Assembly: GCA_016192455.1 (NCBI GenBank) | Contig: JACPUC010000015.1 | Location: forward strand, 1 to 64,000 | DNA from: Candidatus Tectimicrobiota bacterium | GTDB lineage: Bacteria > JACPUC01 | Reading direction: 5' to 3' | DNA: 64,000 bases | Shown here: piece by piece, positions 12,755 through 24,274 of the stretch | How positions within the stretch are numbered: position 1 is the stretch's first letter | Layout of the letters: the number at the start of each line of letters is the position of its first letter | Made by a program: the position numbers and the translations under genes | The notes under the pieces: generated by a model | Seen by the model: only the letters and a program-made list of their open reading frames with translations | What the model was told of the DNA's origin: nothing | Databases searched by the model: none

Positions 12755-14995
12755 CTAGAAGCCCTCCATGGCTGGCAGGGTGCGCTGGAAGCCGCGCATG
12801 GGGACGCGGGCGATGAGCAGCGTGGCACGTCGCACGAGGGCCCCCTCATGGATGAGCTCGAACGAGGGCGGTTGCGGAGGCAGCCAGCCGAGCAGAAGAA
12901 GCTCGTTCTCTTGCTCGCTCTTGCGCAAGCGCGACAGAGGGAAGAGGACCTCCATGAGCGAGCGTTTGATCAGTTCCTCCTCGGAGGGGGAGGCGAGCTC
13001 ATCGCGGCGGAAGAAGAGGGCATCCCAAAGACGTTGCAAGGCCTCATCGGGCACCTCCTCCTGGAACAGCGGCAGGCTGCGCGCCGCCTCCTCGCCGGGC
13101 TCGAGCGTCGGCAGGGAGAGGAGACCTCCCATGGCGATGGCGAAGGGTGACCGCAGCGCCATGCCGAGGCTGTTGCGCACCTGGAGGCGGAGGAGCGGGC
13201 CCTCCACCCAGGCGTCGACCTCCAGGCGCGCCGGCACCTGCGTGGCGATCGTGAAAGAGCGTTGCGACCAGCGCGCGGCGGGGATGGAGAGCAGGCGGGC
13301 TCCCTCCTCGCCGAGGTAGTGGACGTCCAGGAACGCCTGCCGCTTCGCGGGCGGCGCAAGCTGACGCAGGGCGGCGTTGGCAGCGGTGCTGCGAATCTGG
13401 ATCGTGGTGCGGCGGGTGGCGAAGAGGCCCCAGTGTCCCTCCAGCAGCGCCAGGGGCTGGCGCGGCGCGACCTCCAGGGTGCGCACGTCGAAGGCCAGCA
13501 CTTGGTCCCGCTGCAACGGATTCCCCAGCAGGAGGAGCGCCACGAAGGTGAATCCCACCGGGGCTGCCGCCGCCAGCCAGAACGCCGCGCGGCGCGGCTG
13601 GCGCGGCCAGGCGCGCGGGCCGAGGCGGCGGGCCAGGAGGCTCAGGAGCGCGGTCGCCGCTCCGCCGGAGTCCGGCCCCGCCGGACGAATGGGCCTCCAG
13701 ACCACGGTAGGCGGCGGATTCCTGAAAGTTCCGCGCTGCCGAGCTGGCAGGTACGCCTCGGAGCGGTGGAGGAACCAGTAGATTCCCGTCAGGAGGCCGA
13801 GGTACGGCAGCACCACGGCAAGGATCAGGAGATGCAGCCAGAGGATGGAAGCGCTGGTCCGGAGGGGGAGCGCGAAGAGGCGTTCGAAGAGGGCGAACGT
13901 TTCAGGACGCTGCTGGGCGGCTCTGGCGGCTGGAAGCATCAGGCGCCAGAGGGCGCCGCGGCCTGCCCAGCCGGTCATCGGGTACTGCGCCAGGTTCAGG
14001 GCGAAGAAGAAGATGCGGCCGCGCAGGTAGGGGTGACGCACGAGGATTGGCAGAGACCGGTGCGCCACGAGCACCTCGGCGGGGGAGACAATCGAGCGCA
14101 GCTTCGCCCGGGCGACGAGGAAGGGTTGCGCTGCCACGAGCGGCTGGCCGAAATACCGGGCCAGCTCCGGCAGGGCCTCCAGTTGGGTGACCCCGAGCCC
14201 TTCCACCGGCAGCCAGCGCGCCGCGCTGGGAAGCTCCGGCGGCGCCCCCACCTCGCCGGCGATCACCAGGGAGCCACCCTGCGCCACCCAGCGTTCCAGC
14301 GCCTCGAGCTGCGCCCTCCCCAGCCGCTGGAGGGGAAGCTGCTGCACGAGCACCACGGCCACCCCGTCAAAGGCGTACCAGTCGGTGGGGAGTCGATCGA
14401 GGTGGGGATAGGTGACGAGGTAGCGCGCCGTGGTGGTTTGGGCGAGGAAATCGGCGCTCACCGCGTCGCTAAGGACGACGATGAGATCACTGGTGGTGAA
14501 ATGGTTGCGCAGGTCGATGGCCTGCTCGGCGACGGCGCCGAACTCATCGCGCAAGATGACGCGCAGCGGTTCCGAAAAGCTATCGAGGTAGACGGTGAAG
14601 GCGAAGCGCTTCCGCGATCCCGAGGGGAGCAGCACCCGGCGCACGTAGCGCGCCTGAAACGCCGTGCCGCGGAAGCGGGAGCCCTCGTGGACGAGGAGTT
14701 CCAGGCTGCCCCGCAGGGACGGCCCTGAGTTCTCCACGAGGACGGACACCGGAACCCAGGAATCCAGCTTGAAGCGTTCCTGAAACCCCAGGTGAACACT
14801 GAGGCGGGTTGGAGCGGCGGCCCAGCCGAGGCCCGGCAGGAGCAGGCTGGCGATGGCGCTCAGGAGGAGCGTTCGCAGCCGGCTGCGGCGCCGCTGCGGC
14901 CGGCGGGTCGGCGGCGAGACCTGGCATGGCGCCGCGGCCCGGAGCGCGCAAGAAAGGCTCGGGGCCGCGCCTGGCTGCGGCATCAGGTTCCACAT
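12755..14995 (-). CDS. Large exported/membrane protein with GATase-like domain (first gene of MoxR operon); start uncertain
   Basis: Signal-like 'RLRTLLLSAIASLLLPGLGWAA', 'WVPVSVLVEN.G', 'LPTDWYAFDGV', 'ALERWVAQGGSLVIAG', two TM segments. Longest ORF starts at 15094. Confidence 0.7.
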   Translation of the reverse strand: MWNLMPQPGAAPSLSCALRAAAPCQVSPPTRRPQRRRSRLRTLLLSAIASLLLPGLGWAAAPTRLSVHLGFQERFKLDSWVPVSVLVENSGPSLRGSLELLVHEGSRFRGTAFQARYVRRVLLPSGSRKRFAFTVYLDSFSEPLRVILRDEFGAVAEQAIDLRNHFTTSDLIVVLSDAVSADFLAQTTTARYLVTYPHLDRLPTDWYAFDGVAVVLVQQLPLQRLGRAQLEALERWVAQGGSLVIAGEVGAPPELPSAARWLPVEGLGVTQLEALPELARYFGQPLVAAQPFLVARAKLRSIVSPAEVLVAHRSLPILVRHPYLRGRIFFFALNLAQYPMTGWAGRGALWRLMLPAARAAQQRPETFALFERLFALPLRTSASILWLHLLILAVVLPYLGLLTGIYWFLHRSEAYLPARQRGTFRNPPPTVVWRPIRPAGPDSGGAATALLSLLARRLGPRAWPRQPRRAAFWLAAAAPVGFTFVALLLLGNPLQRDQVLAFDVRTLEVAPRQPLALLEGHWGLFATRRTTIQIRSTAANAALRQLAPPAKRQAFLDVHYLGEEGARLLSIPAARWSQRSFTIATQVPARLEVDAWVEGPLLRLQVRNSLGMALRSPFAIAMGGLLSLPTLEPGEEAARSLPLFQEEVPDEALQRLWDALFFRRDELASPSEEELIKRSLMEVLFPLSRLRKSEQENELLLLGWLPPQPPSFELIHEGALVRRATLLIARVPMRGFQRTLPAMEGF

Positions 14996-15315
14996 GGGGC
15001 GGCGCGGGGAAATCGAGGGCGGTGAGGTGCGTGCCGAGCTGGTGTTGGCAGGGTGAGGGAGCGAACGGGGGAGGCGAAGGGGAGCACGCCGCATCCTCTC
15101 CGGGTTGCACCTCTAGGCTGTGCGACCCATATTGGTGCGCGAGCTGACGTGCCGCGCCGCCGCTTGCCGGCGCGGTCAGTTCCGGCGCCGCCTCGCGCTT
15201 CCTCTCCTGAGCGAGTTCTACCGCAGTCCGTCAGCCGCGTAAACAGGAAAAGAGCTGCGGGTCCATCTCCGAGGGGCGCCAAGTCGTTTTCCCCTGTGCG
15301 GAGGTGCGAGGTGTG

Positions 15316-15324
15316 TGGTACATT
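15316..15324 (+). promoter_or_regulatory. Possible extended -10 promoter (TGnTACATT) for the lipid operon
   Basis: TGGTACATT in the divergent intergenic region about 180 nt upstream of 15507. No clear -35. Confidence 0.3.
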
Positions 15325-15506
15325 CCCCTTGCATGCAGCCTCGCGGAGCGTGGAGACCTGAGGTGGGGCCGCGGGGGCGGCCGCGGCGAGGCGCCGCCCG
15401 GCCTGCGAACCCTCTCCTCCCGAGTGGCTGGCTGACCGACGCACGCAGCCTGGCGCGGGGTCGTTCTTCCGTTTGCACGGCTTGATCTTCTCCAGAGGGC
15501 GATCAC

Positions 15507-18191
15507 GTGGGACGAGATTCCCAAGCCAGCGCGCCGAAAGGAATTCGCGCCGCTCTTGCCGGCAAGACGCTGCTCGTCTCCGGCGCCACCGGTTTTCTCG
15601 GCAAGGCCCTGATCGAGAAGCTCCTCTTCGAAATACCCGCCATCAAGCGCATCTATCTCCTCATCCGGCCCCGAGGAGGCGACGTTCCAGCCCAGGCACG
15701 GCTCAAGGCGGACATCTTCTCGAGCCCCCTCTTCCAACGCCTGCGGACGCGGGAAGAGGGGCGGGAAGGGTTCGAGGCTTTCCTGGGCGGAAAGGTTGTC
15801 GCCGTTGAAGGGGACCTCATGCAGGTGGGCCTCGGCTTGGCGGACGAGGACCTGCGGCGGCTCGCCAAGGAGATCGACCTCATCATCAACAGCGCCGCCA
15901 CCGTGCAGTTCGATGAACGCCTTGATCTGGCGCTGAACTTGAACACCCTGGGACCGCAGCGCTTGCTGGCGTTGGCCAAGAGCTGCCTGCGGCGTCCCCT
16001 CCTGGTGCAGGTCTCCACCTGCTACGTCGGGGGGAAGCTCGCCGGTCCCATCCCGGAGCAGGTGCTCGAGCAGGAGCAGACGATCAGCCACCTGCGGGGT
16101 GATGCCAACCTGCCGCCATTCAACGTCGATGAAGAGATCCGCCACCTCTTCCGGACCATTCGGCAGATCATCCAGGAGAGCCATCATCCGGAACGTCGAG
16201 TGGAGATCGTGGCCCTTGCCCGTGAGCAGCTCCTCAACGGGCAGGCGGCAAGCAAGCGGCAGGGCTCCCGGGCGGCGAATGGCGGGCAGCGGCTGGCCGA
16301 AGTCTCCTTCGAGGCGGCGCGCGGCCAGTGGATCGCCAGGCGCCTCGTGAGCGAGGGGATGAGCCGCGCCCAGCGCTATGGCTGGAACGACACCTACACC
16401 TTCACCAAGGCGCTGGGGGAGAAGCTCCTCGTCCGCGACCACGGCGCCGTGCCGCTCATCATCCTGCGGCCCTCCATCATCGAGAGCAGCCTGCGCGAGC
16501 CGGAGGCGGGGTGGATCGAAGGCTACCGCATGGCCGACCCGATGATCGCCGCGTATGGCCTCGGCAAGCTGCGCAAGTTCTCCAGCCGCCGCGAGGTGGT
16601 GCTCGACGTCATCCCCCTCGATGTTGTGGTGAACACGCTCATCGCCGCCATGGCTCACCCGCCGGCGGCGGGGCACGTCGTCTATCAGACGGCGTCCGGC
16701 AGCCGCGTCCCCCTCACCATTGGGAGGCTGGCCGACTACATCTTCGAGTACTTCCGCGACCATCCGATGCGAACTCGCAAGGGCCAGCCCATCCGCGTCA
16801 AACCCTGGCGATTGCAGCCGCAGGAGGAGTTTCAGCGCCACCTCTACTGGCGCTCCTTCCTGCCGGTGAAGATGCTGCACCGCGTGCTGCGCTCGCTGGC
16901 CTGGCTCCCCTTCGCGCCGTCGCTCCTCGAGAAGGTGGGGAAGCTACGCAACGCCCTCGAGCAGCTCCGGCACCTCAGCACGATTTACGCTCCCTACACC
17001 AACCATAGCCCGCTCTTCGAGACGAAAGCCACGGAGAAGCTCTTCGATCTGCTGCGCGAGGAAGACCGGCAGCGCTTCAACTTCAGCCTTGCTGATCTCG
17101 ACTGGGAGCACTACGTCAAGGAGGTGCACATTCCCGGCCTCATCCGCAACGTCATCCAGGCCGAGCGCCCGCCCCGGCTGACGGCGATCTCCCCGGTTCC
17201 CCTGGCTGACGAGGCGACGCTGGCGGCCTGGGGCGAAGCGCCGATCGCGGAGATGATCGCCCCCGCGAGCATGGTCGATCCCCTCACCGAGGCGGAGTTC
17301 ACCCTCTGGAATGAGACGGATGCGCTCGAGGAGGACGTTGCCGGCATTGGCATGGGCGAGGCTCGCGACCAAGGGGCCGCGGCGGCAACAACCCTTGAGG
17401 AGCTGGAGCAGGCCGAGGCAAGCAGGGCCGCGCCGCTGCCGACCGAGCGGCCGTTGCGCCTGCGGCGCCGCCTGGCGATCCCCGCCGTGCCCGCCATCCT
17501 CGCGCCGCAGCGTCGCTCTCCCCTCACCTTCATGCAGGTGGCCTTCCGCGACTTCATCGGGGTGCTGGGGCTAATTGCCAACCGCGTCTATTTCCGCTCG
17601 GAAGTGACGGGGCTCGATCACCTGCCCACGGATGGCGCCTTCATCGTCGCCTCCAACCACTGCAGCCATCTCGACACCACGGCTGTCATCCTGTCGATGG
17701 GACCCTACGCTCTGCGGGCCTGCGTCGTGGGGGCGCGTGACTACTTCTTCAACACCCGTCTCAAGGCCTGGTTCTTCGGCAGTCTGTTGAAAGCCATCCC
17801 CTTCGATCGGCAGGGGAACTTCATCGCCGGCATCCGCCAGTGCCGCGAAGCGCTCATGAATCGCACCCCGGTGCTCATCTACCCGGAAGGGACCCGCTCC
17901 CTCACCGGCATGCTGCAGCCGTTCAAGCTCGGGGTGGGGGTGCTGGCCTACGAGCTCAAGGTTCCCGTTGTTCCCGCCTACGTCAGCGGCACCTACCAGG
18001 CGCTGCCGAAAGGGTCATGGTTCCCCCGTCCCTACAAGGTTCGGGTGCGCTTCGGTCCTCCCCTCACCCCCTCCGCCGCGACGGCCGAGGATGACCGGGA
18101 CGGCTCGCCCTACACGGCCTACGTGACCCTCGTGCGCCGGCTGCGCCAGGCCATTGAAGAGCTCCGCGATGCCAGCGCCACGCCGGCATGA
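15507..18191 (+). CDS. Fatty acyl-CoA reductase (NAD_binding_4 + Sterile domains) fused to a PlsC-type glycerolipid acyltransferase
   Basis: 'VSGATGFLGK', 'NSAATVQFDE', 'VSTCYV', YxxxK 'TYTFTKALGE', 'RPSIIES', 'DWEHYVKEVHIPGL'. C-terminal 'NHCSHLD' (HxxxxD) and 'YPEGTRS'. Confidence 0.92.
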   Translation: MGRDSQASAPKGIRAALAGKTLLVSGATGFLGKALIEKLLFEIPAIKRIYLLIRPRGGDVPAQARLKADIFSSPLFQRLRTREEGREGFEAFLGGKVVAVEGDLMQVGLGLADEDLRRLAKEIDLIINSAATVQFDERLDLALNLNTLGPQRLLALAKSCLRRPLLVQVSTCYVGGKLAGPIPEQVLEQEQTISHLRGDANLPPFNVDEEIRHLFRTIRQIIQESHHPERRVEIVALAREQLLNGQAASKRQGSRAANGGQRLAEVSFEAARGQWIARRLVSEGMSRAQRYGWNDTYTFTKALGEKLLVRDHGAVPLIILRPSIIESSLREPEAGWIEGYRMADPMIAAYGLGKLRKFSSRREVVLDVIPLDVVVNTLIAAMAHPPAAGHVVYQTASGSRVPLTIGRLADYIFEYFRDHPMRTRKGQPIRVKPWRLQPQEEFQRHLYWRSFLPVKMLHRVLRSLAWLPFAPSLLEKVGKLRNALEQLRHLSTIYAPYTNHSPLFETKATEKLFDLLREEDRQRFNFSLADLDWEHYVKEVHIPGLIRNVIQAERPPRLTAISPVPLADEATLAAWGEAPIAEMIAPASMVDPLTEAEFTLWNETDALEEDVAGIGMGEARDQGAAAATTLEELEQAEASRAAPLPTERPLRLRRRLAIPAVPAILAPQRRSPLTFMQVAFRDFIGVLGLIANRVYFRSEVTGLDHLPTDGAFIVASNHCSHLDTTAVILSMGPYALRACVVGARDYFFNTRLKAWFFGSLLKAIPFDRQGNFIAGIRQCREALMNRTPVLIYPEGTRSLTGMLQPFKLGVGVLAYELKVPVVPAYVSGTYQALPKGSWFPRPYKVRVRFGPPLTPSAATAEDDRDGSPYTAYVTLVRRLRQAIEELRDASATPA

Positions 18192-18234
18192 GGTCGTCCT
18201 GAACGCCACCTCGCGGCGATCAGCCTGCCTGCAG

Positions 18235-18900
18235 ATGGCCTTCTTCGATGTGGATGGCACCTGCGTCGATACCACCATCCTGCACTACTATGTCTGGTTC
18301 GTTCGCGATCGCGTTGCGCCGCCCTGGCGCTGGCTGCGGATCGGCAAGCTCCTCTCCCTCGTCCCGTACTACTGGGTTCTTGACCAGGTCTCCCGGACCG
18401 CCTTTAGCATCGCCTTCTACCGCGCCTATGCCGGTATCGCGGCGGCGGAGCTGGAGGAGTGGGGGCGAACCACGCTGCGCCAGCGACTCCTGCCGCATGT
18501 CTACCCGGGGGCGAGAGCTGAGATCAGCGCCCTGGGGAGAGATGGGGTGCCGATCACCTTCGTGACCGGCTCGTTGCCGGCGGTGGTGGAGCCGGTGCGG
18601 CAGCTTGCCGCGCAGGAGGGGTCGCCGGCGGAGGTGCTGGGGAGCGTGCTCGCGGTGCGGCGGGGCGTCTTCACGGGGGACCTGGAGGGGGCTCCCCTGG
18701 CGAGCGAGGCGAAGCGCCGGCGCCTCGAGTCCCTCGCCACGGAGCGTGGCATCAGCCTCGAGCAGTGCGCCGCCTATGGCGACTCCATGGCTGATCTGCC
18801 GATGCTCGAGGCGGTCGGTCAGCCGGTGGCCGCGAACCCCACCCCGTCCCTGCGTCGCATTGCCCGGCGGCGCGGCTGGACGATTTGCGATTGGGCCTAG
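18235..18900 (+). CDS. HAD-superfamily subfamily IB phosphatase (SerB-like)
   Basis: Motif I 'FFDVDGT', motif II 'VTGS', 'K' in 'EAKRR', motif IV 'YGDSMADLPML..VG.PVAANP'. The start could be a little further upstream (frame open from 18154). Confidence 0.9.
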   Translation: MAFFDVDGTCVDTTILHYYVWFVRDRVAPPWRWLRIGKLLSLVPYYWVLDQVSRTAFSIAFYRAYAGIAAAELEEWGRTTLRQRLLPHVYPGARAEISALGRDGVPITFVTGSLPAVVEPVRQLAAQEGSPAEVLGSVLAVRRGVFTGDLEGAPLASEAKRRRLESLATERGISLEQCAAYGDSMADLPMLEAVGQPVAANPTPSLRRIARRRGWTICDWA

Positions 18901-18937
18901 GTTGTGGTTGGGCGGAGCTTGCGGGACGGCCGGACCT

Positions 18938-20173
18938 ATGCTGGCGATCCAGTACCTGAAGAGCATCCCGCGCTTCCTCGCGGTGCGTGGGCTGGGGACG
19001 TTCTGGAAGGGGGCGGCGACGAGCCGATTCGGCTGCGCGCAGCTCCGCGAGATCGCCCCGCCCCCCTTGCCGAACGAGCGCTGGCTGCGCCTGCGCCCTA
19101 TCCTCGCCGGCATCTGCGGCTCGGACCTGGCGACGATCACGGCGAGGAACACCCCGTACTTCTCGCCCCTCCTCTCCTACCCGTTCACCCTCGGCCATGA
19201 GCTGGTAGGGCGCGTCGAGGAGGTGGGGGCGGCGGTCGAGGGGGTGGCGAGGGGCGACAAGGTCCTCGTCGAGCCGGCGTTAAGCTGCGCGGTGCGGGGC
19301 ATCGAGCCGCCCTGCCCGATGTGCCAGGCCGGCCATGCCGCCTGCTGCCTGAACATCATGCACGGCGCCATCTCCCCCGGCATCCAGACCGGCTACTGCC
19401 GCGATACCGGGGGCGGCTGGAGCGAGTCCCTGGTGGTGCACGAGCGGCAGGTGCTGCGGGCCCCCGAGGAGACGCCGGACGAGGCGCTCGTGCTGGTGGA
19501 GCCTTTGAGCTGCGCGGTGCACGCCGCCCTGAAGGTCGCTTGCCCGGCGGCCGGCACGGCCCTGGTGCTGGGGTGCGGCGCCATCGGCTTGCTCCTCACC
19601 TTTGCGCTGCGCACCCTTGGGAATCCCGGCCGCATCATCGCGGTCCACCGCTACCCCCACCAGGCGGCGTTCGCCAGGGTCTTCGGCGCCGATTGCCTCG
19701 TCCAGGACGGTCCCGGGGTGGAGGAGGAGATCGCCGCGCTGACGCGCGCCGAGCGCCGCAAGCCGGAGATCGGCGGCAGCGTCTTCCTGGGCGGGGTGGA
19801 CGTGACCTACGATTGCGTCGGCTCCTCCGGCAGCCTCGACCAGGCCCTGCGCTACACGCGCGCGCTCGGGGCGGTTGCCGTGGTGGGCATGCCGGGGGTG
19901 CCGCGCGGCCTTGACTGGACGGCCATCTGGTACAAGGAGCTGCGCGTCGTCGGCACCTATGCGTACGGCCTTGAGGAGTACGCGGGTGAGCGCCTGCGCA
20001 CCTTCGAGCTGGCGGCCCGCCTGGCGCGCCGGCACGCCGCCAAGCTGGCGCCGCTCGTCGGGGCGCGCTACCCCCTGCGGGAGTTCCCGGCGGCCATTGC
20101 CTCGGCGCGCTTCAGCGGGCGGTCCGGCGTGGTGAAGACGGTCTTCGAGGTGACGCCGGAGGGGCGGCTGTAG
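18938..20173 (+). CDS. Zinc-dependent medium-chain dehydrogenase/reductase
   Basis: 'GICGSDL', 'LGHELVG', Cys cluster 'SCAVRGIEPPCPMCQAGHAACC', 'EPLSCAVH', Rossmann 'LGCGAIG'. ATG at 18938. Confidence 0.92.
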   Translation: MLAIQYLKSIPRFLAVRGLGTFWKGAATSRFGCAQLREIAPPPLPNERWLRLRPILAGICGSDLATITARNTPYFSPLLSYPFTLGHELVGRVEEVGAAVEGVARGDKVLVEPALSCAVRGIEPPCPMCQAGHAACCLNIMHGAISPGIQTGYCRDTGGGWSESLVVHERQVLRAPEETPDEALVLVEPLSCAVHAALKVACPAAGTALVLGCGAIGLLLTFALRTLGNPGRIIAVHRYPHQAAFARVFGADCLVQDGPGVEEEIAALTRAERRKPEIGGSVFLGGVDVTYDCVGSSGSLDQALRYTRALGAVAVVGMPGVPRGLDWTAIWYKELRVVGTYAYGLEEYAGERLRTFELAARLARRHAAKLAPLVGARYPLREFPAAIASARFSGRSGVVKTVFEVTPEGRL

Positions 20174-20308
20174 GACGTTCCAGCCATGGCAGGGCGCTGC
20201 GGGCGGCCCTGGCAGAGGCGCCGGGAAGCGTTCGGTCGAGGAGACGTGGGCTCGTCCGCAGCGCCCCCGAAGTGAGCAAGGGATCGGAGCGGGAATCGAG
20301 GATCAGGG

Positions 20309-21922
20309 ATGCACGATGCCGCGCAGCAACGCGACCCGGAACGCGATCGCAACGGTCTTGTCTGGTACGTCGAGAAACCGAACCAAAAGTTTCTCTTCGC
20401 CTGCGGAGAGCGCTACGTTTGGGAGACCCTGCCACCCGGCACGCGCATCGTCGAGGCGCCGCCGTCGGTGCCGGGGCTTGCCGACCCGGACGCGGCGATC
20501 GAGGCGGCGCTGGAGCACCCCCTCGGCTGCGATCCCCTCTCGGCCCAGTTGCGGCCGGGGATGAAGGTGACCATCGCCTTCGACGACCTGTCGCTGCCGC
20601 TGCCGCCCATGCAGCGGCCCGACGTGCGCCAGCGCGTCATCGAGATCGTGCTGCGCAAGCTGGCCGCGGCCGGTATTGACGATATCCACCTCATCGTCGC
20701 CACCAGCCTTCACCGGCGCATGACCAAGGCCGAGCTGCAACACGCCCTGGGCCGCCGCATCGTGCGGGCGTTCTACCCGCATCGCCTTTACAACCACGAT
20801 GCGGAGAATCCGGACGGCATCGTCGCCCTCGGCAAGACCGAGCAGGGCGAGGTGGTGGAGTTGAACCGGCGGGCCGTCGAGTCGGACCTCCTGATCTACG
20901 TGAACATCAACCTCGTCTCCATGGACGGCGGCAACAAGTCGGTGCCCGTGGGCTTGGGAACCTACGCCAGCCTGCGCTTCCACCACAACGTGCACAGCCT
21001 CATGCAGTCGCGCTCTTTCATGGACCCGCGGCACTCCTACCTGCACCACTCCTGCGACCGCATGGGACGCGTGGTCGCCGAGCACGTCAAGATCTTCACC
21101 ATCGAAACGACCTTGAACGGCGACATGTTCCCCTGGTTCATGACCTTCCTCAACAAGACCGAGAAGCACTACACCGCCTTCGACCGCCTCTCCCTGCACG
21201 CCACCCGCGGCTTCCTCGACCACTCGCCCCTGGCGGTCAATCGCAGGCTCTTCCAGGCCATCAAGTCGCCCTACCAGCTCAGCGGCGTGCACGCCGGGGA
21301 GACGAACGCGGTGCACGCGAAGACAATGGAGCAGGTCTTCAAGCAGCACCTCGTGCGTGTCGAAGGCCAGGCGGACATCGTCGTCATGGGGTTGGCGCAC
21401 ATCTGTCCCTACAACGTCAACTCCATCATGAACCCCATCCTGGTCATGTGCCTGGGGCTGGGCTACATGTTCAACTTCTACCGCGGCCGGCCGCTGGGGC
21501 GGAAGGGTGGCGTGATGATCTTCCTGCATCCGGTGGAGTACAAGTTCAACGCCGTGCACCACCCCTCCTACATCGACTTCTTCGAGGAGGTGCTGACCGA
21601 GACGCAGGACTCCAGCGTCATCGAGGCGAAATACGAAGAGAGCTACGCGCGCAACCCCCGCTACCTCGAGGCGTATCGTTTCGGGCATGCCTACCACGGC
21701 GTGCACCCGTTCTACATGTGGTACTGGGGCACCCAGGGGCAGCGGCACTTCGCGCGCGTCATCTTCGTTAACCCCACCAGCCCACAGGCGGTGCGGCGCA
21801 TGGGGTTCGAGGCGGCGCCGTCGCTGCCGGCCGCCCTCGAGATGGCGCGCGACACGCTGGGGGCGAACGCCTCCATCACCTACCAGCGGGTGCCGCCGAT
21901 CTCGATGTGCGAGGTGGTCTGA
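20309..21922 (+). CDS. Lactate racemase (LarA/DUF2088)-fold protein
   Basis: 'ALEHPLG..PL', 'VTIAFDD', 'IVATSLHRRMT', 'NHDAE', 'ELNRRAVESDLLIYV', 'GGNKS', 'GGVMI'. Confidence 0.85.
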   Translation: MHDAAQQRDPERDRNGLVWYVEKPNQKFLFACGERYVWETLPPGTRIVEAPPSVPGLADPDAAIEAALEHPLGCDPLSAQLRPGMKVTIAFDDLSLPLPPMQRPDVRQRVIEIVLRKLAAAGIDDIHLIVATSLHRRMTKAELQHALGRRIVRAFYPHRLYNHDAENPDGIVALGKTEQGEVVELNRRAVESDLLIYVNINLVSMDGGNKSVPVGLGTYASLRFHHNVHSLMQSRSFMDPRHSYLHHSCDRMGRVVAEHVKIFTIETTLNGDMFPWFMTFLNKTEKHYTAFDRLSLHATRGFLDHSPLAVNRRLFQAIKSPYQLSGVHAGETNAVHAKTMEQVFKQHLVRVEGQADIVVMGLAHICPYNVNSIMNPILVMCLGLGYMFNFYRGRPLGRKGGVMIFLHPVEYKFNAVHHPSYIDFFEEVLTETQDSSVIEAKYEESYARNPRYLEAYRFGHAYHGVHPFYMWYWGTQGQRHFARVIFVNPTSPQAVRRMGFEAAPSLPAALEMARDTLGANASITYQRVPPISMCEVV

Positions 21923-21929
21923 GGAGCCG

Positions 21930-22913
21930 ATGAGGCCGCCGCTACCCGCGTTGAACCTGGCCGTCATCGTCAATCCCCGCTCCGGGGCGGGGAAGGGGCG
22001 GCGGCTTGCCGCGCGGCTGAGCGCCTGGTTGAAGCAGCAGGGGATTGTGGCGCCGTTCGCCCTCACCGAAGCGCCGGGCCACGGGCGCGCGCTGGCGGCG
22101 GGGTTCCTGAGAGAGGGCCACCGGCTCCTCATTGTCGTTGGCGGCGACGGCACGCTCCATGAGGTGGTGAATGCCATGGTGGCCGGGAGCGGTGGGCTTG
22201 CGAACGCCGCTCCGCCGCGCCAGCGACATGGCGTTGGCTCGATTGCGGTCAGCGCCGACGAACCCCCGCGCCCGCTGCTGGCGATCCTGCCGTGCGGCAA
22301 GGGGAACGACTTCGCCCGTGCCCTCGGCATCCCGACGCGCTGGGAAAGCTGGCTGGCGATGCTGCGGGCGGGATCGACGCGCGGCGTCGATCTGGGATGG
22401 GCCGGCGGGCGGGCCTTCACCACGGTTGCCGCGGTGGGGTTCGATGCCGAGGTGAGCGAGCGCGTCAACGCCGCCAGGCTGCGCGGCGCCGGCAGCATGC
22501 TCTACCTGCTCATGGCCCTGCGCCACCTGTTCCGCTACCAGCCGAAACTGCTGCGCCTGAGCGGCGATTTCGGCGTCTTCGAGGGTCGCGTCTTCCTCAC
22601 CGCCGTTGGCAACACGCCGCACTACGGCGGCGGCATGCGCATCACCCCCGGCGCCGACCCAGGGGACGGCGTCCTGGAGGTCTGCATCGTCGAGCCGATG
22701 CCGAAGCTGGCCGTGCTGCGCCTGCTGCCGAGCGTCTACACGGGCCGTCACGTCAGCCACCCGCGGGTGCGCTGCGAACGCACGCGCACCCTGCGCGTCG
22801 AAAGCCCTGAAGGGCCCCTCTGGCTGCACGCCGACGGCGAACCCCTCTGCCAAACCCCCGCCGCCATCGAGACCCTCCCGCGGGCCGTGCGGCTGCTCGT
22901 GCCGGCGCCGTAA
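21930..22913 (+). CDS. Diacylglycerol/lipid kinase family protein (YegS/DagK-like)
   Basis: 'VIVNPRSG', 'VGGDGTLHEVVN', 'LPCGKGNDFARALG', 'GFDAEV', 'YGGGM', 'HADGE'. Confidence 0.92.
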   Translation: MRPPLPALNLAVIVNPRSGAGKGRRLAARLSAWLKQQGIVAPFALTEAPGHGRALAAGFLREGHRLLIVVGGDGTLHEVVNAMVAGSGGLANAAPPRQRHGVGSIAVSADEPPRPLLAILPCGKGNDFARALGIPTRWESWLAMLRAGSTRGVDLGWAGGRAFTTVAAVGFDAEVSERVNAARLRGAGSMLYLLMALRHLFRYQPKLLRLSGDFGVFEGRVFLTAVGNTPHYGGGMRITPGADPGDGVLEVCIVEPMPKLAVLRLLPSVYTGRHVSHPRVRCERTRTLRVESPEGPLWLHADGEPLCQTPAAIETLPRAVRLLVPAP

Positions 22914-22981
22914 GGGGTGTGATGCGAGGGAGCATCGCCCCCTCGCGCACCCCGTTTACGCGAGCTGCTGCGCAGCTCGCG
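22914..22981. repeat. Tandem GC-rich hairpins (terminator- or REP-like) after the lipid operon
   Basis: GGGGTG..GCGAGGG / CCCTCGC.CACCCC (22914-22953) followed by GTTT, then perfect 10-bp stem CGCGAGCTGC-TGC-GCAGCTCGCG (22959-22981). Confidence 0.6.
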
Positions 22982-22982
22982 G

Positions 22983-23174
22983 GAGATAATCTGGGATTAC
23001 TTGAACTGTGCGAATCGAAAAAGGATTAGGAGCGAGACAGGCATCTTCCTGGCCTGGCTGTCGATCCTCTTCATGGCGCACTTTCACTACCCGTTTCACC
23101 TACCGACGACGCAGGCGCTCTTCATTGTGTTGACGGCGATGCTTTTGGTTGACAAGCCCACCGCAAGTCTGTAG
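22983..23174 (+). pseudogene. 3' remnant of an O-antigen-ligase-like membrane protein
   Basis: Start-less frame reads EIIWDYLNCANRKRIRSETGIFLAWLSILFMAHFHYPFHLPTTQALFIVLTAMLLVDKPTASL* (TAG 23172-74). 'F.YPFHLP' between two TM helices resembles Wzy_C/O-antigen ligase C-termini. Confidence 0.45.
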
Positions 23175-23263
23175 ATTTGAGTCTACGGCGCAAACTGAGC
23201 GCCAAGCCCGGCGAAGGTTTCTCGCGCCACAACCGGGAGCTCGTAAGCGAGAGGGAGCCTACC

Positions 23264-24274
23264 ATGCCTCAGTTCATCTCCTTTACGCAGACCCAAGACA
23301 TGTTCGGACAATACGGCGGATCGCCGTACCCGCCCGACCGCGTGGTGGTTGACCAGCCGAACATCCGATCCGACGCGAGGCGTCTGGAAGCCGCGATCGC
23401 CAAACAGCGGACCGGCCTGGCGGCGGCAAGGGACAAACTCGCCAAGATGCGGGACCGGGTGAACGCGCTTTATGGCACGCCCGCGATGAATGATCCGGCG
23501 ATTCTGGCGATGTCGAATCATCACATCCCCGCCTTGGAGATCAGGGTCGCCGCCATCGAGACCGATCTTGGGTTGAAGGAACGCACGTTGGAGCGGACGA
23601 AGATTCTCTTGGCCCAGATGAGCGAGGATGAGAAGAATCTTCAGCAGGCCCAGGAGAACCCGGCGGTCGCGGCCGAGATGGGGAAGGTACTCACAGCGGC
23701 GGGGGTCAAGATCGGAGATATAATGGAAGAGACACAAGTGTTGCGAGAAAGATTTGATCAGATTCGGAGCGCAGTTGGTGATATTCTGATTGATTATTAC
23801 ATTTACGCTAGAATTGCTGAAATAGCAGATTCTAATCAGCTTCTTTGGCAGAGCAATGATTTCTGGGGGTTCTTGGACCGGCTCTATCGTAGTTCAATGG
23901 TTATTCGAATTCGGTCGCAGATTGACACCCATAAAGACGTGATTTCTTTTAGGAAGTTCCTTGAAGATCTAAAAACGTCTGATACTAAATTCAGAATTAG
24001 AAGAGAAGAAATAGATAGTGATATAATGCAATTAGATGAGAGTACCAAGCCAATCAAGGCTTACACAAATAAGTATGTTGCACACATTGATAAGAATCGG
24101 TCTGAGTTTAATACTAGGAGGGAACAGATTCGTTTAAGTATTGAAGTATTAGACAAGCTACTGTGTAAATACTGGAAGATCATGTTTGATGAGGATTTGC
24201 AAACCGTCCAATCGGAACTCGAATTCAAGAATTGGGAAGAAATTTTCTCCTTTCCATGGATAACTCCCAAATAA
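23264..24274 (+). CDS. Hypothetical protein: N-terminal coiled coil + C-terminal HEPN/AbiU2-like domain
   Basis: RBS GAGGGAG before ATG 23264. C-half has 'VIRIR...D...DVISFRKFL', 'YTNKYVAHID', 'WEEIFSFPW'. Strong GC drop after about 23720. Confidence 0.55.
   Translation: MPQFISFTQTQDMFGQYGGSPYPPDRVVVDQPNIRSDARRLEAAIAKQRTGLAAARDKLAKMRDRVNALYGTPAMNDPAILAMSNHHIPALEIRVAAIETDLGLKERTLERTKILLAQMSEDEKNLQQAQENPAVAAEMGKVLTAAGVKIGDIMEETQVLRERFDQIRSAVGDILIDYYIYARIAEIADSNQLLWQSNDFWGFLDRLYRSSMVIRIRSQIDTHKDVISFRKFLEDLKTSDTKFRIRREEIDSDIMQLDESTKPIKAYTNKYVAHIDKNRSEFNTRREQIRLSIEVLDKLLCKYWKIMFDEDLQTVQSELEFKNWEEIFSFPWITPK

What the first reader, a model, noticed from the sequence alone, without database searches (positions are those of the whole stretch)
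20309..21922. LarA-fold protein with a remodelled active site inside a lipid operon
By-eye alignment to lactate racemase LarA (sequence recalled from memory): the His of 'ATGxHR' is kept (ATSLHRR), the cofactor-binding Lys of 'GGRKS' is kept (GGNKS), and the Ni-ligand His region is kept (RFHH). The 'DxTR' Arg is replaced (DDLSLP) and the second catalytic His ('EPHFFAG') is missing (NINLVSMD). The protein is also longer (537 aa). No larB/C/E genes lie in the window. Inference: it is not a hydroxy-acid racemase but catalyses new chemistry, possibly acyl-to-alkyl exchange or hydride-transfer-assisted ether formation, with a nickel-pincer or alternative cofactor.
Basis: partly seen in the sequence, partly recalled or inferred. 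Interest (0 to 1): 0.72.

Follow-up and report, generated by a model that had tools for sequence, protein, structure and literature searches.

The report
Nickel-cofactor LarA homologue in ether-lipid-type operon
This gene encodes a relative of nickel-dependent lactate racemase that has lost the residues needed to racemise a hydroxy acid and sits in a widely conserved fatty-alcohol/glycerolipid operon, so it probably carries out a still unknown step of bacterial ether-lipid synthesis.

Summary
ORF 20309-21922 (+) is a 537-aa LarA-fold protein. It keeps the cofactor-holding residues (Asp93, His135, Lys210, His226) but has Leu96 for Arg75 and no His at the His174 position.

It is not an orphan. 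It passes the curated NCBIfam model "LarAH14/15/16" (809.8 bits, cut-off 740). That group's missing histidine is already published, and its Frankia member showed no activity in seven assays.

The genome encodes larB, larC and larE on other contigs, and this is its only LarA homologue. In 8 of 80 related loci larB/C/E lie beside the operon. A nickel-pincer cofactor is therefore likely.

The gene order reductase(+acyltransferase)-HAD-Zn-dehydrogenase-LarAH recurs across at least five phyla. It mirrors the myxobacterial elb ether-lipid genes.

An ether-forming role is inferred from context only. I could not test whether this protein equals ElbC.

One result is unexplained: five genomes keep the operon and all key residues but lack larB/C/E.

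This scan reached the same reading earlier on other DNA. Verdict: a new member of a known, uncharacterised family.

The parts
15507..18191 (+). Fatty acyl reductase fused to a PlsC/AGPAT-type acyltransferase (894 aa, 'FARAT' architecture; no acyl-AMP ligase or ACP domain)
   Evidence: Pfam NAD_binding_4 8.4e-62 (res 25-377), Sterile 6.3e-12 (475-549), Acyltransferase 4.2e-21 (698-826). NCBIfam gives only sub-cut-off thioester-reductase and AGP-acyltransferase domain matches.
18235..18900 (+). HAD-IB family phosphatase (221 aa from the ATG at 18235; ElbB-like)
   Evidence: Pfam HAD 1.9e-29. NCBIfam TIGR01490 scores 111.1 bits, cut-off 98.3. The ATG at 18235 is followed by MAFFDVDGT, the HAD motif I. 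The mechanical ORF starts at 18154.
18938..20173 (+). Zn-dependent medium-chain dehydrogenase of the polyol/threonine-dehydrogenase type (411 aa from the ATG at 18938)
   Evidence: Pfam ADH_N 1.1e-19 and ADH_zinc_N 4.4e-18. The best NCBIfam matches are all below cut-off: L-threonine 3-DH, L-idonate 5-DH, galactitol-1-phosphate 5-DH. Homologues align from residue ~111 of the longer ORF, which fits the ATG at 18938.
20309..21922 (+). LarA homologue of the LarAH14/15/16 family (537 aa): the finding
   Evidence: NCBIfam NF052592 scores 809.8 bits, cut-off 740. Pfam Lar_N 6e-39. AF2 model pLDDT 90.5. Foldseek top hit 9Q3K, TM 0.77/0.85. Key residues Asp93, Leu96, His135, Asn199/Asn201, Lys210, His225/His226, Tyr368, His463/His466.
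21930..22913 (+). YegS/Rv2252/BmrU-type lipid (diacylglycerol) kinase (327 aa). It starts 7 nt after the LarAH stop, and that spacer contains GGAG.
   Evidence: Pfam DAGK_cat 4.3e-27 and YegS_C 3.4e-41. NCBIfam TIGR00147 scores 146.2 bits, cut-off 118.65. Junction sequence.

Best explanation
Shown:
- The gene encodes a full-length member of the curated LarAH14/15/16 branch of the lactate-racemase (LarA) superfamily.
- It lacks the second catalytic His and the carboxylate-binding Arg.
- It is the fourth gene of a five-gene same-strand cluster: FAR-acyltransferase, HAD phosphatase, Zn-dehydrogenase, LarAH, lipid kinase.
- The core of that cluster is conserved across phyla.
- The genome encodes larB, larC and larE.

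Inferred:
- The protein is an NPN enzyme that acts on a glycerol-phosphate-type lipid precursor, not on a free 2-hydroxy acid. It belongs to an elb-type alkyl-ether glycerolipid pathway.

Most likely mechanism (inference):
- His135 deprotonates the C2 hydroxyl of a glycerol-3-phosphate-derived intermediate while NPN takes the C2 hydride. This is a transient ketone, as in LarA.
- Without a second base, the hydride is not returned to the opposite face.
- Instead it completes an ether-forming step with the aldehyde or alcohol made by the FAR domain. One route returns the hydride to C2 after exchange at C1, giving 1-alkyl-G3P.
- The other route delivers it to a hemiacetal-derived oxocarbenium, giving 1-alkyl-DHAP, which the neighbouring Zn-dehydrogenase then reduces.
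- The acyltransferase, HAD phosphatase and lipid kinase then process the alkyl-glycerol phosphate.
For: Family and fold.

Residue map against LarA_Lp and LarA_Sp. These residues are invariant in 25 of 25 family members from several phyla.

Of the four residues next to the unidentified ligand in holo LarA_Sp (His115, His306, Tyr307, His401; PMC12611868 section 2.4), three are kept here: His135, Tyr368, His466.

Cofactor:
- The own genome has LarB (294 bits, cut-off 175), LarE (342 bits, cut-off 150) and a two-gene LarC (266 and 165 bits). It has only one Lar_N protein.
- larB+larC+larE lie within 8 kb of the LarAH gene in 8 of 80 loci. In L046 larE sits directly upstream of the reductase gene.
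- In 201 sampled genomes of the phylum holding Micromonospora locus L046, 44 of 48 LarAH-positive genomes have LarC, against 100 of 153 LarAH-negative ones. Fisher p = 2e-4, not corrected for relatedness.

Context:
- Of 80 loci, 77 have a match to the reductase-acyltransferase protein, 77 to HAD, 72 to Zn-ADH and 8 to the kinase.
- In Planctomycetota and Acidobacteriota the reductase protein has the full FAR-ligase-(ACP)-acyltransferase architecture described for ElbD.
- The nearest out-group LarA homologues (463-487 aa) have none of these neighbours in 0 of 80 loci.
- M. xanthus also has an AGPS-FARAT-SDR operon. The window has FARAT + dehydrogenase + LarAH and no AGPS next to it.

Desguin et al. 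[quoted passage not shown]
Against: - No biochemical or genetic datum exists for this family in lipid synthesis. The reviews I read report insertions in elbA, elbB, elbD and elbE but none in elbC.
- I could not verify that ElbC is a LarA homologue.
- Five genomes lack LarB, LarC and LarE above cut-off, yet keep the operon and every NPN-binding residue. They are G184, G079, G121 and G019, which are close kin, plus G004.
- 8 of 80 loci lack the Zn-ADH. If alkyl-DHAP is the product, a reductase must then come from elsewhere.
- ElbD homologues do not always go with ether lipids: Pontiella has them and none were detected (PMC11868695).
- Sponge-symbiont elb-like clusters often hold only elbD and elbB.
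- LarC is common in the sampled phylum even without this protein (100 of 153), so co-occurrence is only modest evidence.
Confidence: 0.45

Rival explanations
1. It is an NPN-dependent stereo-inverting or one-way isomerase that acts on a small polar precursor of the pathway. Candidates are the C2 centre of glycerol phosphate (G3P to G1P), glycerate, or another polyol phosphate. It would set backbone stereochemistry rather than make the ether bond.
For: All characterised LarA homologues invert C2 of a hydroxy compound. Gatreddi et al. propose one-way racemisation for single-His homologues and a phosphorylated polyol-like ligand in LarA_Sp. The neighbouring dehydrogenase resembles polyol-phosphate dehydrogenases, though all matches are below cut-off.
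Against: Only one acid/base His is present and Arg75 is lost. LarAH14 was inactive in seven assays, but glycerol phosphate was not among them. Nothing in the operon calls for an inverted backbone.
Confidence: 0.2
2. It acts in the lipid pathway but at a tailoring step other than ether formation. An example is an internal hydride shift (keto/hydroxy isomerisation) on an acyl- or alkyl-dihydroxyacetone phosphate or on the fatty chain. The ether bond would be made by another enzyme.
For: There is tight operon linkage but no direct evidence for which step. NCBI names the family only 'hydroxyacid isomerase'. The own genome has three FAD-oxidase_C proteins, so an AGPS-like enzyme was not ruled out.
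Against: The minimal conserved sets (reductase, HAD, LarAH, acyltransferase, as in L086) hold no other candidate for the ether step. Two of the three FAD-oxidase_C genes are adjacent, which looks like a glycolate-oxidase pair (inference).
Confidence: 0.15
3. The operon does not make ether lipids at all. It could make wax esters, fatty-alcohol phosphates or diol lipids instead, and the LarA homologue serves that other chemistry.
For: The ether-lipid assignment is by homology to elb only. ElbD homologues occur in Pontiella, where no ether lipids were found. The window's reductase protein lacks the ligase and ACP domains of ElbD.
Against: The combination of reductase, glycerolipid acyltransferase, phosphatase and diacylglycerol-type kinase points to a glycerol backbone. 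The full ElbD architecture occurs in the same operon in other phyla.
Confidence: 0.1
4. The protein works without the nickel-pincer cofactor. It could use another ligand at Lys210/His226, or act as a non-catalytic partner of the reductase/acyltransferase.
For: Five genomes keep the operon and all key residues but have no LarB, LarC or LarE above cut-off.
Against: The Lys, the Ni-ligand His and the ribose-binding Asp are invariant in 25 of 25 and 8 of 8 aligned sequences. larB/C/E adjoin the operon in 8 of 80 loci. The closest solved relative binds NPN covalently.
Confidence: 0.08

Closest known systems
LarAH14/15/16 family (NCBIfam NF052592); tested member LarAH14 of Frankia sp. (Desguin et al. 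2020, PMC7583248)
   Same: It scores above the curated cut-off over the whole length. It is 52-62% identical to members from Actinomycetota, including Frankia MAGs, Chloroflexota, Planctomycetota, Acidobacteriota and cyanobacteria. It shows the same loss of the His174 equivalent that is published for groups 14/15.
   Different: Nothing that defines the family differs. The substrate of the family is unknown: LarAH14 gave no activity in seven assays. The window's organism is the only genome of its phylum held by the tool.
Single-histidine LarA homologues LarA_Sp and LarA_Bw (PDB 9Q2U/9Q3K, 9Q3J; Gatreddi et al. 2025, PMC12611868)
   Same: They are the best solved relatives by sequence (4.7e-55) and by fold (TM 0.77/0.85). 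They share the NPN Lys, the Ni His, the ribose Asp and one catalytic His. They also share the C-domain Tyr and His near the ligand: Tyr368 = Tyr307 and His466 = His401.
   Different: Identity is only 24%. Lys76 of LarA_Sp is Leu96 here and His306 is Pro367. The window protein has an extra ~48-aa insertion. Their gene context is glycolysis/carbohydrate, not lipid. Whether Asn201 or Asn199 matches their invariant Asn185 is ambiguous.
Lactate racemase LarA of Lactiplantibacillus plantarum (PDB 5HUQ)
   Same: The fold matches (Foldseek E 5e-23), as do the NPN-binding residues Asp72, His108, Lys184 and His200.
   Different: His174 and Arg75 are absent. It scores 89.7 bits against a cut-off of 460. 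It is about 100 aa longer. It is not next to larB/C/E or to lactate genes.
elbA-E ether-lipid operon of Myxococcus xanthus (Lorenzen et al. 2014, seen only as described in PMC9131029 and PMC13012113)
   Same: A HAD phosphatase (ElbB-like) and a FAR plus AGPAT-type acyltransferase (ElbD-like) stand in one operon with the LarA homologue. In Planctomycetota and Acidobacteriota the same operon has the FAR-ligase-(ACP)-acyltransferase architecture of ElbD.
   Different: The window's reductase lacks the ligase and ACP domains. A Zn-ADH stands where elb has SDR-type ElbE/ElbA. A lipid kinase is added and the gene order differs. ElbC is called 'unknown function' in both papers. Its identity with this family is asserted only by earlier notes of this scan and was not tested here.
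Alkylglycerone-phosphate synthase (AGPS) operon MXAN_1676-1674 and eukaryotic FARAT (PMC13012113)
   Same: A FAR-acyltransferase fusion and an NAD(P)-type reductase accompany one further enzyme that makes the ether bond. The window has the same two companions.
   Different: The third enzyme here is a LarA-fold, probably nickel-pincer protein, not the flavoenzyme AGPS. Functional equivalence is an inference.

Membership tests
LarA superfamily (Pfam Lar_N PF09861, LarA fold) | Lar_N domain above the gathering score, and a two-domain LarA fold | tested here: met
   Lar_N scores 133.8 bits, cut-off 23.3. The AF2 model has pLDDT 90.5. Of the 18 rows printed with E <= 0.001 in the Foldseek PDB search (19 counted, rank gaps not shown), all but one (rank 19, PDB 4NAR, titled only Q9WYS3) are entries titled as LarA-family proteins, with TM up to 0.85. 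LarA_C matches only weakly (17.7 bits, cut-off 25).
NCBIfam NF052592 LarAH14/15/16 | Whole-protein score at or above the curated cut-off of 740 bits | tested here: met
   809.8 bits over residues 18-536, profile positions 2-519 of 520.
Lactate racemase LarA (NF033504) | Score of at least 460 bits | tested here: not met
   89.7 bits.
Lactate racemase LarA (NF033504) | Two catalytic histidines (His108 and His174) and the carboxylate/phosphate-binding Arg75 | tested here: not met
   His135 = His108 is present. There is no His in 194-209, with Asn201 aligned to His174. Leu96 = Arg75.
NPN-dependent enzymes | Lys for the thioamide link, His as Ni ligand, Asp at the ribose | tested here: met
   Lys210, His226 and Asp93 align to Lys184, His200 and Asp72. 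They are invariant in 25 of 25 sequences.
NPN-dependent enzymes | Cofactor biosynthesis genes larB, larC and larE in the same genome | tested here: met
   All three are above cut-off on contigs C4, C7/C1 and C1.
NPN-dependent enzymes | Ni and NPN actually bound to the protein | not testable with these tools
   This needs purified protein with metal analysis and mass spectrometry.
Single-His LarAH subfamily of Gatreddi et al. 2025 (group 17) | Invariant Asn at the His174 position | tested here: inconclusive
   HMMER aligns Asn201 with His174 of LarA_Lp. It places Asn185 of LarA_Sp in a 4-residue gap.
Single-His LarAH subfamily of Gatreddi et al. 2025 (group 17) | Lys at the Arg75 position | tested here: not met
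   Lys76 of LarA_Sp aligns to Leu96 here.
elb-type ether-lipid operon | ElbD-type reductase + acyltransferase and ElbB-type HAD phosphatase in one operon | tested here: met
   compared with the description of elb. The ligase and ACP domains are absent in the window but present in L015 and L035.
elb-type ether-lipid operon | The LarA homologue is the orthologue of ElbC (MXAN_1529) | not testable with these tools
   No Myxococcus genome could be reached. Lorenzen 2014 is not held. An in-family 536-aa protein from a Myxococcales MAG exists, but its neighbours could not be fetched.
elb-type ether-lipid operon | The product is a 1-O-alkyl glycerolipid | not testable with these tools
   This needs lipid analysis of a carrier strain and a mutant.

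The most novel reading that the evidence does not exclude
The LarAH14/15/16 proteins are the missing ether-bond-forming enzymes of the aerobic bacterial elb-type pathway. They would use the nickel-pincer cofactor for 'borrowed-hydride' chemistry: oxidise C2 of the glycerol phosphate backbone, form the C1-O-alkyl bond with a fatty aldehyde or alcohol, then give the hydride back. That would be a flavin-free functional analogue of AGPS and the first non-racemase reaction of the LarA superfamily.
Probability: 0.3. Interest if true: 0.85.

Novelty: new member of a known kind. Interest (0 to 1): 0.58.

Why it matters
Two open questions meet in this gene.

First, LarA researchers do not know what the one-histidine homologues do. 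The tested group-14 protein was inactive (PMC7583248) and the solved group-17 structures have no assigned substrate (PMC12611868).

Second, lipid researchers do not know how the elb pathway forms the alkyl ether bond. Papers up to 2026 still leave ElbC unlabelled.

The family is common. It was found in 48 of 201 sampled genomes of one phylum. It has 349 representatives at E <= 1e-30 among clusters at 50% identity. It is unusually conserved, at 52-62% identity across phyla.

If it makes ether bonds, it would add a new reaction type to nickel enzymology. It would also give a marker gene for bacterial ether-lipid producers, which matters for lipid proxies in sediments.

In the literature I could search, no paper links the nickel-pincer cofactor or DUF2088 to ether lipids (in the broader searches none of the papers listed held DUF2088). 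Table S1 of Desguin 2020 lists neighbour COGs per group and may already show this context.

Tried and rejected
1. Testing ElbC = LarA homologue.
- Lorenzen 2014 is not held.
- A search for 'elbC' and MXAN_1529 found only the review, which calls it unknown.
- The Atlas search showed a 471-aa Lar_N cluster, commonest in Myxococcota.
- I took short relatives (463-487 aa) from the representative search and fetched 80 metagenome loci around such proteins.
- None of the 80 has a reductase, acyltransferase, HAD or Zn-ADH neighbour. These short forms are an out-group, not ElbC.
- A 536-aa in-family protein from a Myxococcales MAG turned up.

2. A phylum-level search around the own genome returned only the genome itself. 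I used the phylum of locus L046 instead.

3. AGPS in the own genome: three FAD-oxidase_C matches, which do not discriminate AGPS from glycolate oxidase. Inconclusive.

4. The promoter/terminator scan of 14900-23400 gave counts no higher than shuffled sequence. There are no tRNA genes in the window.

5. The tools return no coordinates of the model.

6. Flanking genes in L012, L014 and L015 (M16 peptidase, CitMHS transporter, P5C reductase, and proteins with no family match) are unrelated. They bound the conserved core.
Full report
**Observation.** The ORF 20309-21922 (+) is open and encodes 537 aa. It has codon-position GC of 0.64/0.40/0.92. It matches Pfam Lar_N at 6e-39.

A profile built from 25 family members aligns to L. 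plantarum LarA (5HUQ) as follows: Asp93 = Asp72, Leu96 = Arg75, His135 = His108, Lys210 = Lys184, His226 = His200. No histidine lies between residues 194 and 209. HMMER places Asn201 opposite His174.

Its recalled 'EPHFFAG' prints as ESHfFAG in the PDB sequence.

Which Asn is the structural equivalent of His174 is uncertain:
- Against LarA_Sp, the published Asn185 falls in a four-residue gap.
- Asn199 is the better kept of the two in more distant relatives.
- The tools give no coordinates with which to decide.

**Family.** The protein is not an orphan with a privately remodelled site. It scores 809.8 bits against NCBIfam NF052592, 'NPN-dependent hydroxyacid isomerase, LarAH14/15/16 family' (cut-off 740). 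It scores only 80-94 bits against the lactate, malate and other racemase models, whose cut-offs are 460-540.

Gatreddi et al. 2025 (sections 2.1, 2.4-2.6 read) state that groups 14 and 15 of Desguin et al. 2020 lack the His174 equivalent. Desguin et al. 2020 (sections and passages read) purified LarAH14 of Frankia sp. and found none of seven activities. [quoted passage not shown]

The family is large and strongly conserved:
- 5792 proteins had E <= 0.001 among the 7999 candidates scored, and the best 120 are all at least 54% identical.
- Among representatives of clusters at 50% identity, 2852 reach E <= 0.001, 1088 reach 1e-10 and 349 reach 1e-30.
- There are 101 invariant columns in 25 sequences from several phyla.

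**Structure.** An AlphaFold2 model from that alignment has mean pLDDT 90.5 and pTM 0.90. The best Foldseek matches are the single-histidine homologues 9Q3K (TM 0.77/0.85, 24% identity) and 9Q3J. Next come LarA of Isosphaera, L. plantarum LarA and the malate racemase.

In holo LarA_Sp, NPN is linked to Lys195 and ligated by His211. An unidentified ligand lies near His115, His306, Tyr307 and His401. Section 2.5 of that paper prints His221, but the sequence alignment fits 211.

The window protein keeps three of those four residues: His135, Tyr368 and His466. It has Pro367 for His306. It carries a ~48-aa insertion (about 271-318) that shorter relatives lack.

**Cofactor.** The window (contig C12) has no lar genes, but the genome does:
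- LarB at C4:55581-56204 (294 bits, cut-off 175).
- LarE at C1:39117-39896 (342 bits, cut-off 150).
- LarC split into an N-terminal gene on C7 (266 bits, profile 1-236) and a C-terminal gene beside larE on C1 (165 bits, profile 237-374).

This protein is the genome's only Lar_N match.

Among the 80 related loci, 8 carry larB, larC and larE within the 8-kb flanks: L016, L046, L050, L051, L056, L057, L063 and L089. In the Micromonospora locus L046, larE lies directly upstream of the reductase gene.

I then sampled 201 genomes of the phylum of L046, which is Actinomycetota by the record title.
- 48 have the family above cut-off and 144 have LarC.
- By my cross-reading of the two lists, 44 of the 48 have LarC, against 100 of the other 153. 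The odds ratio is 5.8 and Fisher p = 2e-4, uncorrected for relatedness.
- These tallies include genomes flagged as unpublished. G093 and G151 are among the positives. G073, G176, G125, G053, G006 and G023 are among the rest.
- Without these eight the figures are 42 of 46 against 95 of 147, p = 3e-4.

**An unexplained exception.** The four LarAH-positive genomes without LarC are G184, G079, G121 and G019. The Acidimicrobiales chromosome behind L086 (G004) also lacks it. All five also lack LarB and LarE above cut-off: 0 of 5 for each.

Yet they keep the reductase-HAD-(ADH)-LarAH-acyltransferase operon. They also keep Asp93, His135, Asn199, Asn201, Lys210, His225 and His226.

The first four are close kin, so this is about two independent cases. 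It is the main evidence against strict NPN dependence, and I have no explanation for it.

**Context.** In the window the gene is fourth of five same-strand genes:
- A FAR-acyltransferase fusion, 15507-18191.
- A HAD-IB phosphatase, 18235-18900.
- A Zn-dehydrogenase of the polyol/threonine type, 18938-20173.
- The LarA homologue, 20309-21922.
- A YegS-type lipid kinase, 21930-22913, which starts 7 nt after the LarAH stop.

I fetched 80 loci from one-genome-per-species contigs, taking the best 80 of at least 600 matches. They are mostly Actinomycetota, with Chloroflexota, Planctomycetota, Acidobacteriota, cyanobacteria and unclassified MAGs as well.
- 77 match the reductase-acyltransferase protein (either part), 77 the HAD, 72 the Zn-ADH and 8 the kinase. 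The usual order is reductase-HAD-ADH-LarAH, followed by the acyltransferase when it is not fused. Several misses are on short contigs.
- In Planctomycetota (L015, 1416 aa) and Acidobacteriota (L035, 1458 aa) the first gene is FAR + acyl-AMP ligase + (ACP in L035) + acyltransferase.
- That is the architecture described for ElbD of M. xanthus. ElbB there is a HAD phosphatase (PMC9131029 passages; PMC13012113 legend).
- The window's shorter FAR-acyltransferase matches the 'FARAT' type of MXAN_1675, which sits beside AGPS and an SDR.

As a specificity control, the nearest out-group LarA homologues (463-487 aa, 31-48% identical to their own query) have none of these neighbours in 0 of 80 metagenome loci.

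**Mechanism.** What is shown:
- An NPN-type active site with one base.
- No carboxylate-binding Arg.
- A fixed partnership with a fatty acyl reductase, a glycerolipid acyltransferase and a phosphatase.
- Cofactor genes in the genome, sometimes in the operon.

What I infer is this. His135 and NPN transiently oxidise the C2 hydroxyl of a glycerol-phosphate-type intermediate. The parked hydride is then used to finish an ether-forming step with the reductase's aldehyde or alcohol. The product is either 1-alkyl-G3P (hydride back to C2) or 1-alkyl-DHAP (hydride to the alkyl C1'). In the second case the neighbouring Zn-dehydrogenase reduces the product.

I put about 0.8 on 'NPN-type enzyme of this lipid pathway' and about 0.3 on 'the ether-forming enzyme'.

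Against this reading:
- No experiment touches it.
- Insertions were reported for elbA, elbB, elbD and elbE but not elbC.
- 8 of 80 loci lack the ADH.
- ElbD homologues occur in Pontiella without detected ether lipids.
- Many sponge-symbiont elb-like clusters hold only elbD and elbB.

**ElbC.** Earlier agents of this scan, working on other genomes, repeatedly called this family the counterpart of ElbC. I reached the elb comparison independently. I could not test the ElbC identity:
- The original paper is not held.
- No Myxococcus genome could be reached.
- The only Myxococcales lead is an in-family 536-aa protein from a MAG whose neighbours I could not fetch.

**Novelty.** The protein is a new member of a known, curated but uncharacterised family. 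The missing histidine is published.

The link between the nickel-pincer cofactor and an ether-lipid-type operon did not appear in any paper found by my searches:
- 'lactate racemase' with fatty acyl-CoA reductase, ether lipid and gene cluster.
- elbC/MXAN_1529.
- DUF2088 with ether and lipid terms.
- 'nickel-pincer' with 'ether lipid', which gave one unrelated Haloferax annotation paper (listing only).

The supplementary Tables S1 and S3 of Desguin 2020 may already list this gene context.

Noticed in passing
own genome, G000:C7:298951-299886 (-) and G000:C1:40232-40648 (+): LarC is encoded as two separate genes on different contigs. The N-terminal part covers profile 1-236 and the C-terminal part covers 237-374. 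The C-terminal gene lies next to larE (C1:39117-39896).
   Followed up: partly
G184, G079, G121, G019 (loci L091-L094) and G004 (L086): Five genomes keep the full reductase-HAD-(ADH)-LarAH-acyltransferase operon and all cofactor-binding residues. None has LarB, LarC or LarE above cut-off.
   Followed up: yes
window 23177-24274 (+): A HEPN AbiU2-type gene (Pfam 4.8e-08) follows the operon. It is preceded by the only sigma-70-like site of the scanned stretch (23149-23177). It could be a defence or abortive-infection gene unrelated to the lipid genes.
   Followed up: no
window 12755-15094 (-): A 779-aa ORF is divergent from the operon. It has only a sub-threshold DUF4350 match and no NCBIfam match.
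   Followed up: no
L041:1647-11278 (Leptolyngbya sp. JSC-1): This is a variant cluster. It holds ligase-ACP-acyltransferase (929 aa, no FAR domain), HAD, an SDR/epimerase-type reductase, two methyltransferases, the LarA homologue and a B12-binding radical SAM protein with DUF4070.
   Followed up: partly
L035:6891-7838 (Acidobacteriota MAG): An IS481-type transposase gene (rve, LZ_Tnp_IS481) is inserted between the Zn-ADH and the LarA homologue of the operon.
   Followed up: no
L097-L176 (metagenome loci): The nearest out-group LarA homologues (463-487 aa, without the ~48-aa insertion) have no reductase, acyltransferase, HAD or Zn-ADH neighbours in any of 80 loci. Their own context was not examined.
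   Followed up: partly
own genome G000: A phylum-level search centred on the window's genome returned only that genome. It appears to be the sole representative of its phylum in the held set. Its closest LarAH relatives are unnamed metagenome proteins at 70-78% identity.
   Followed up: no
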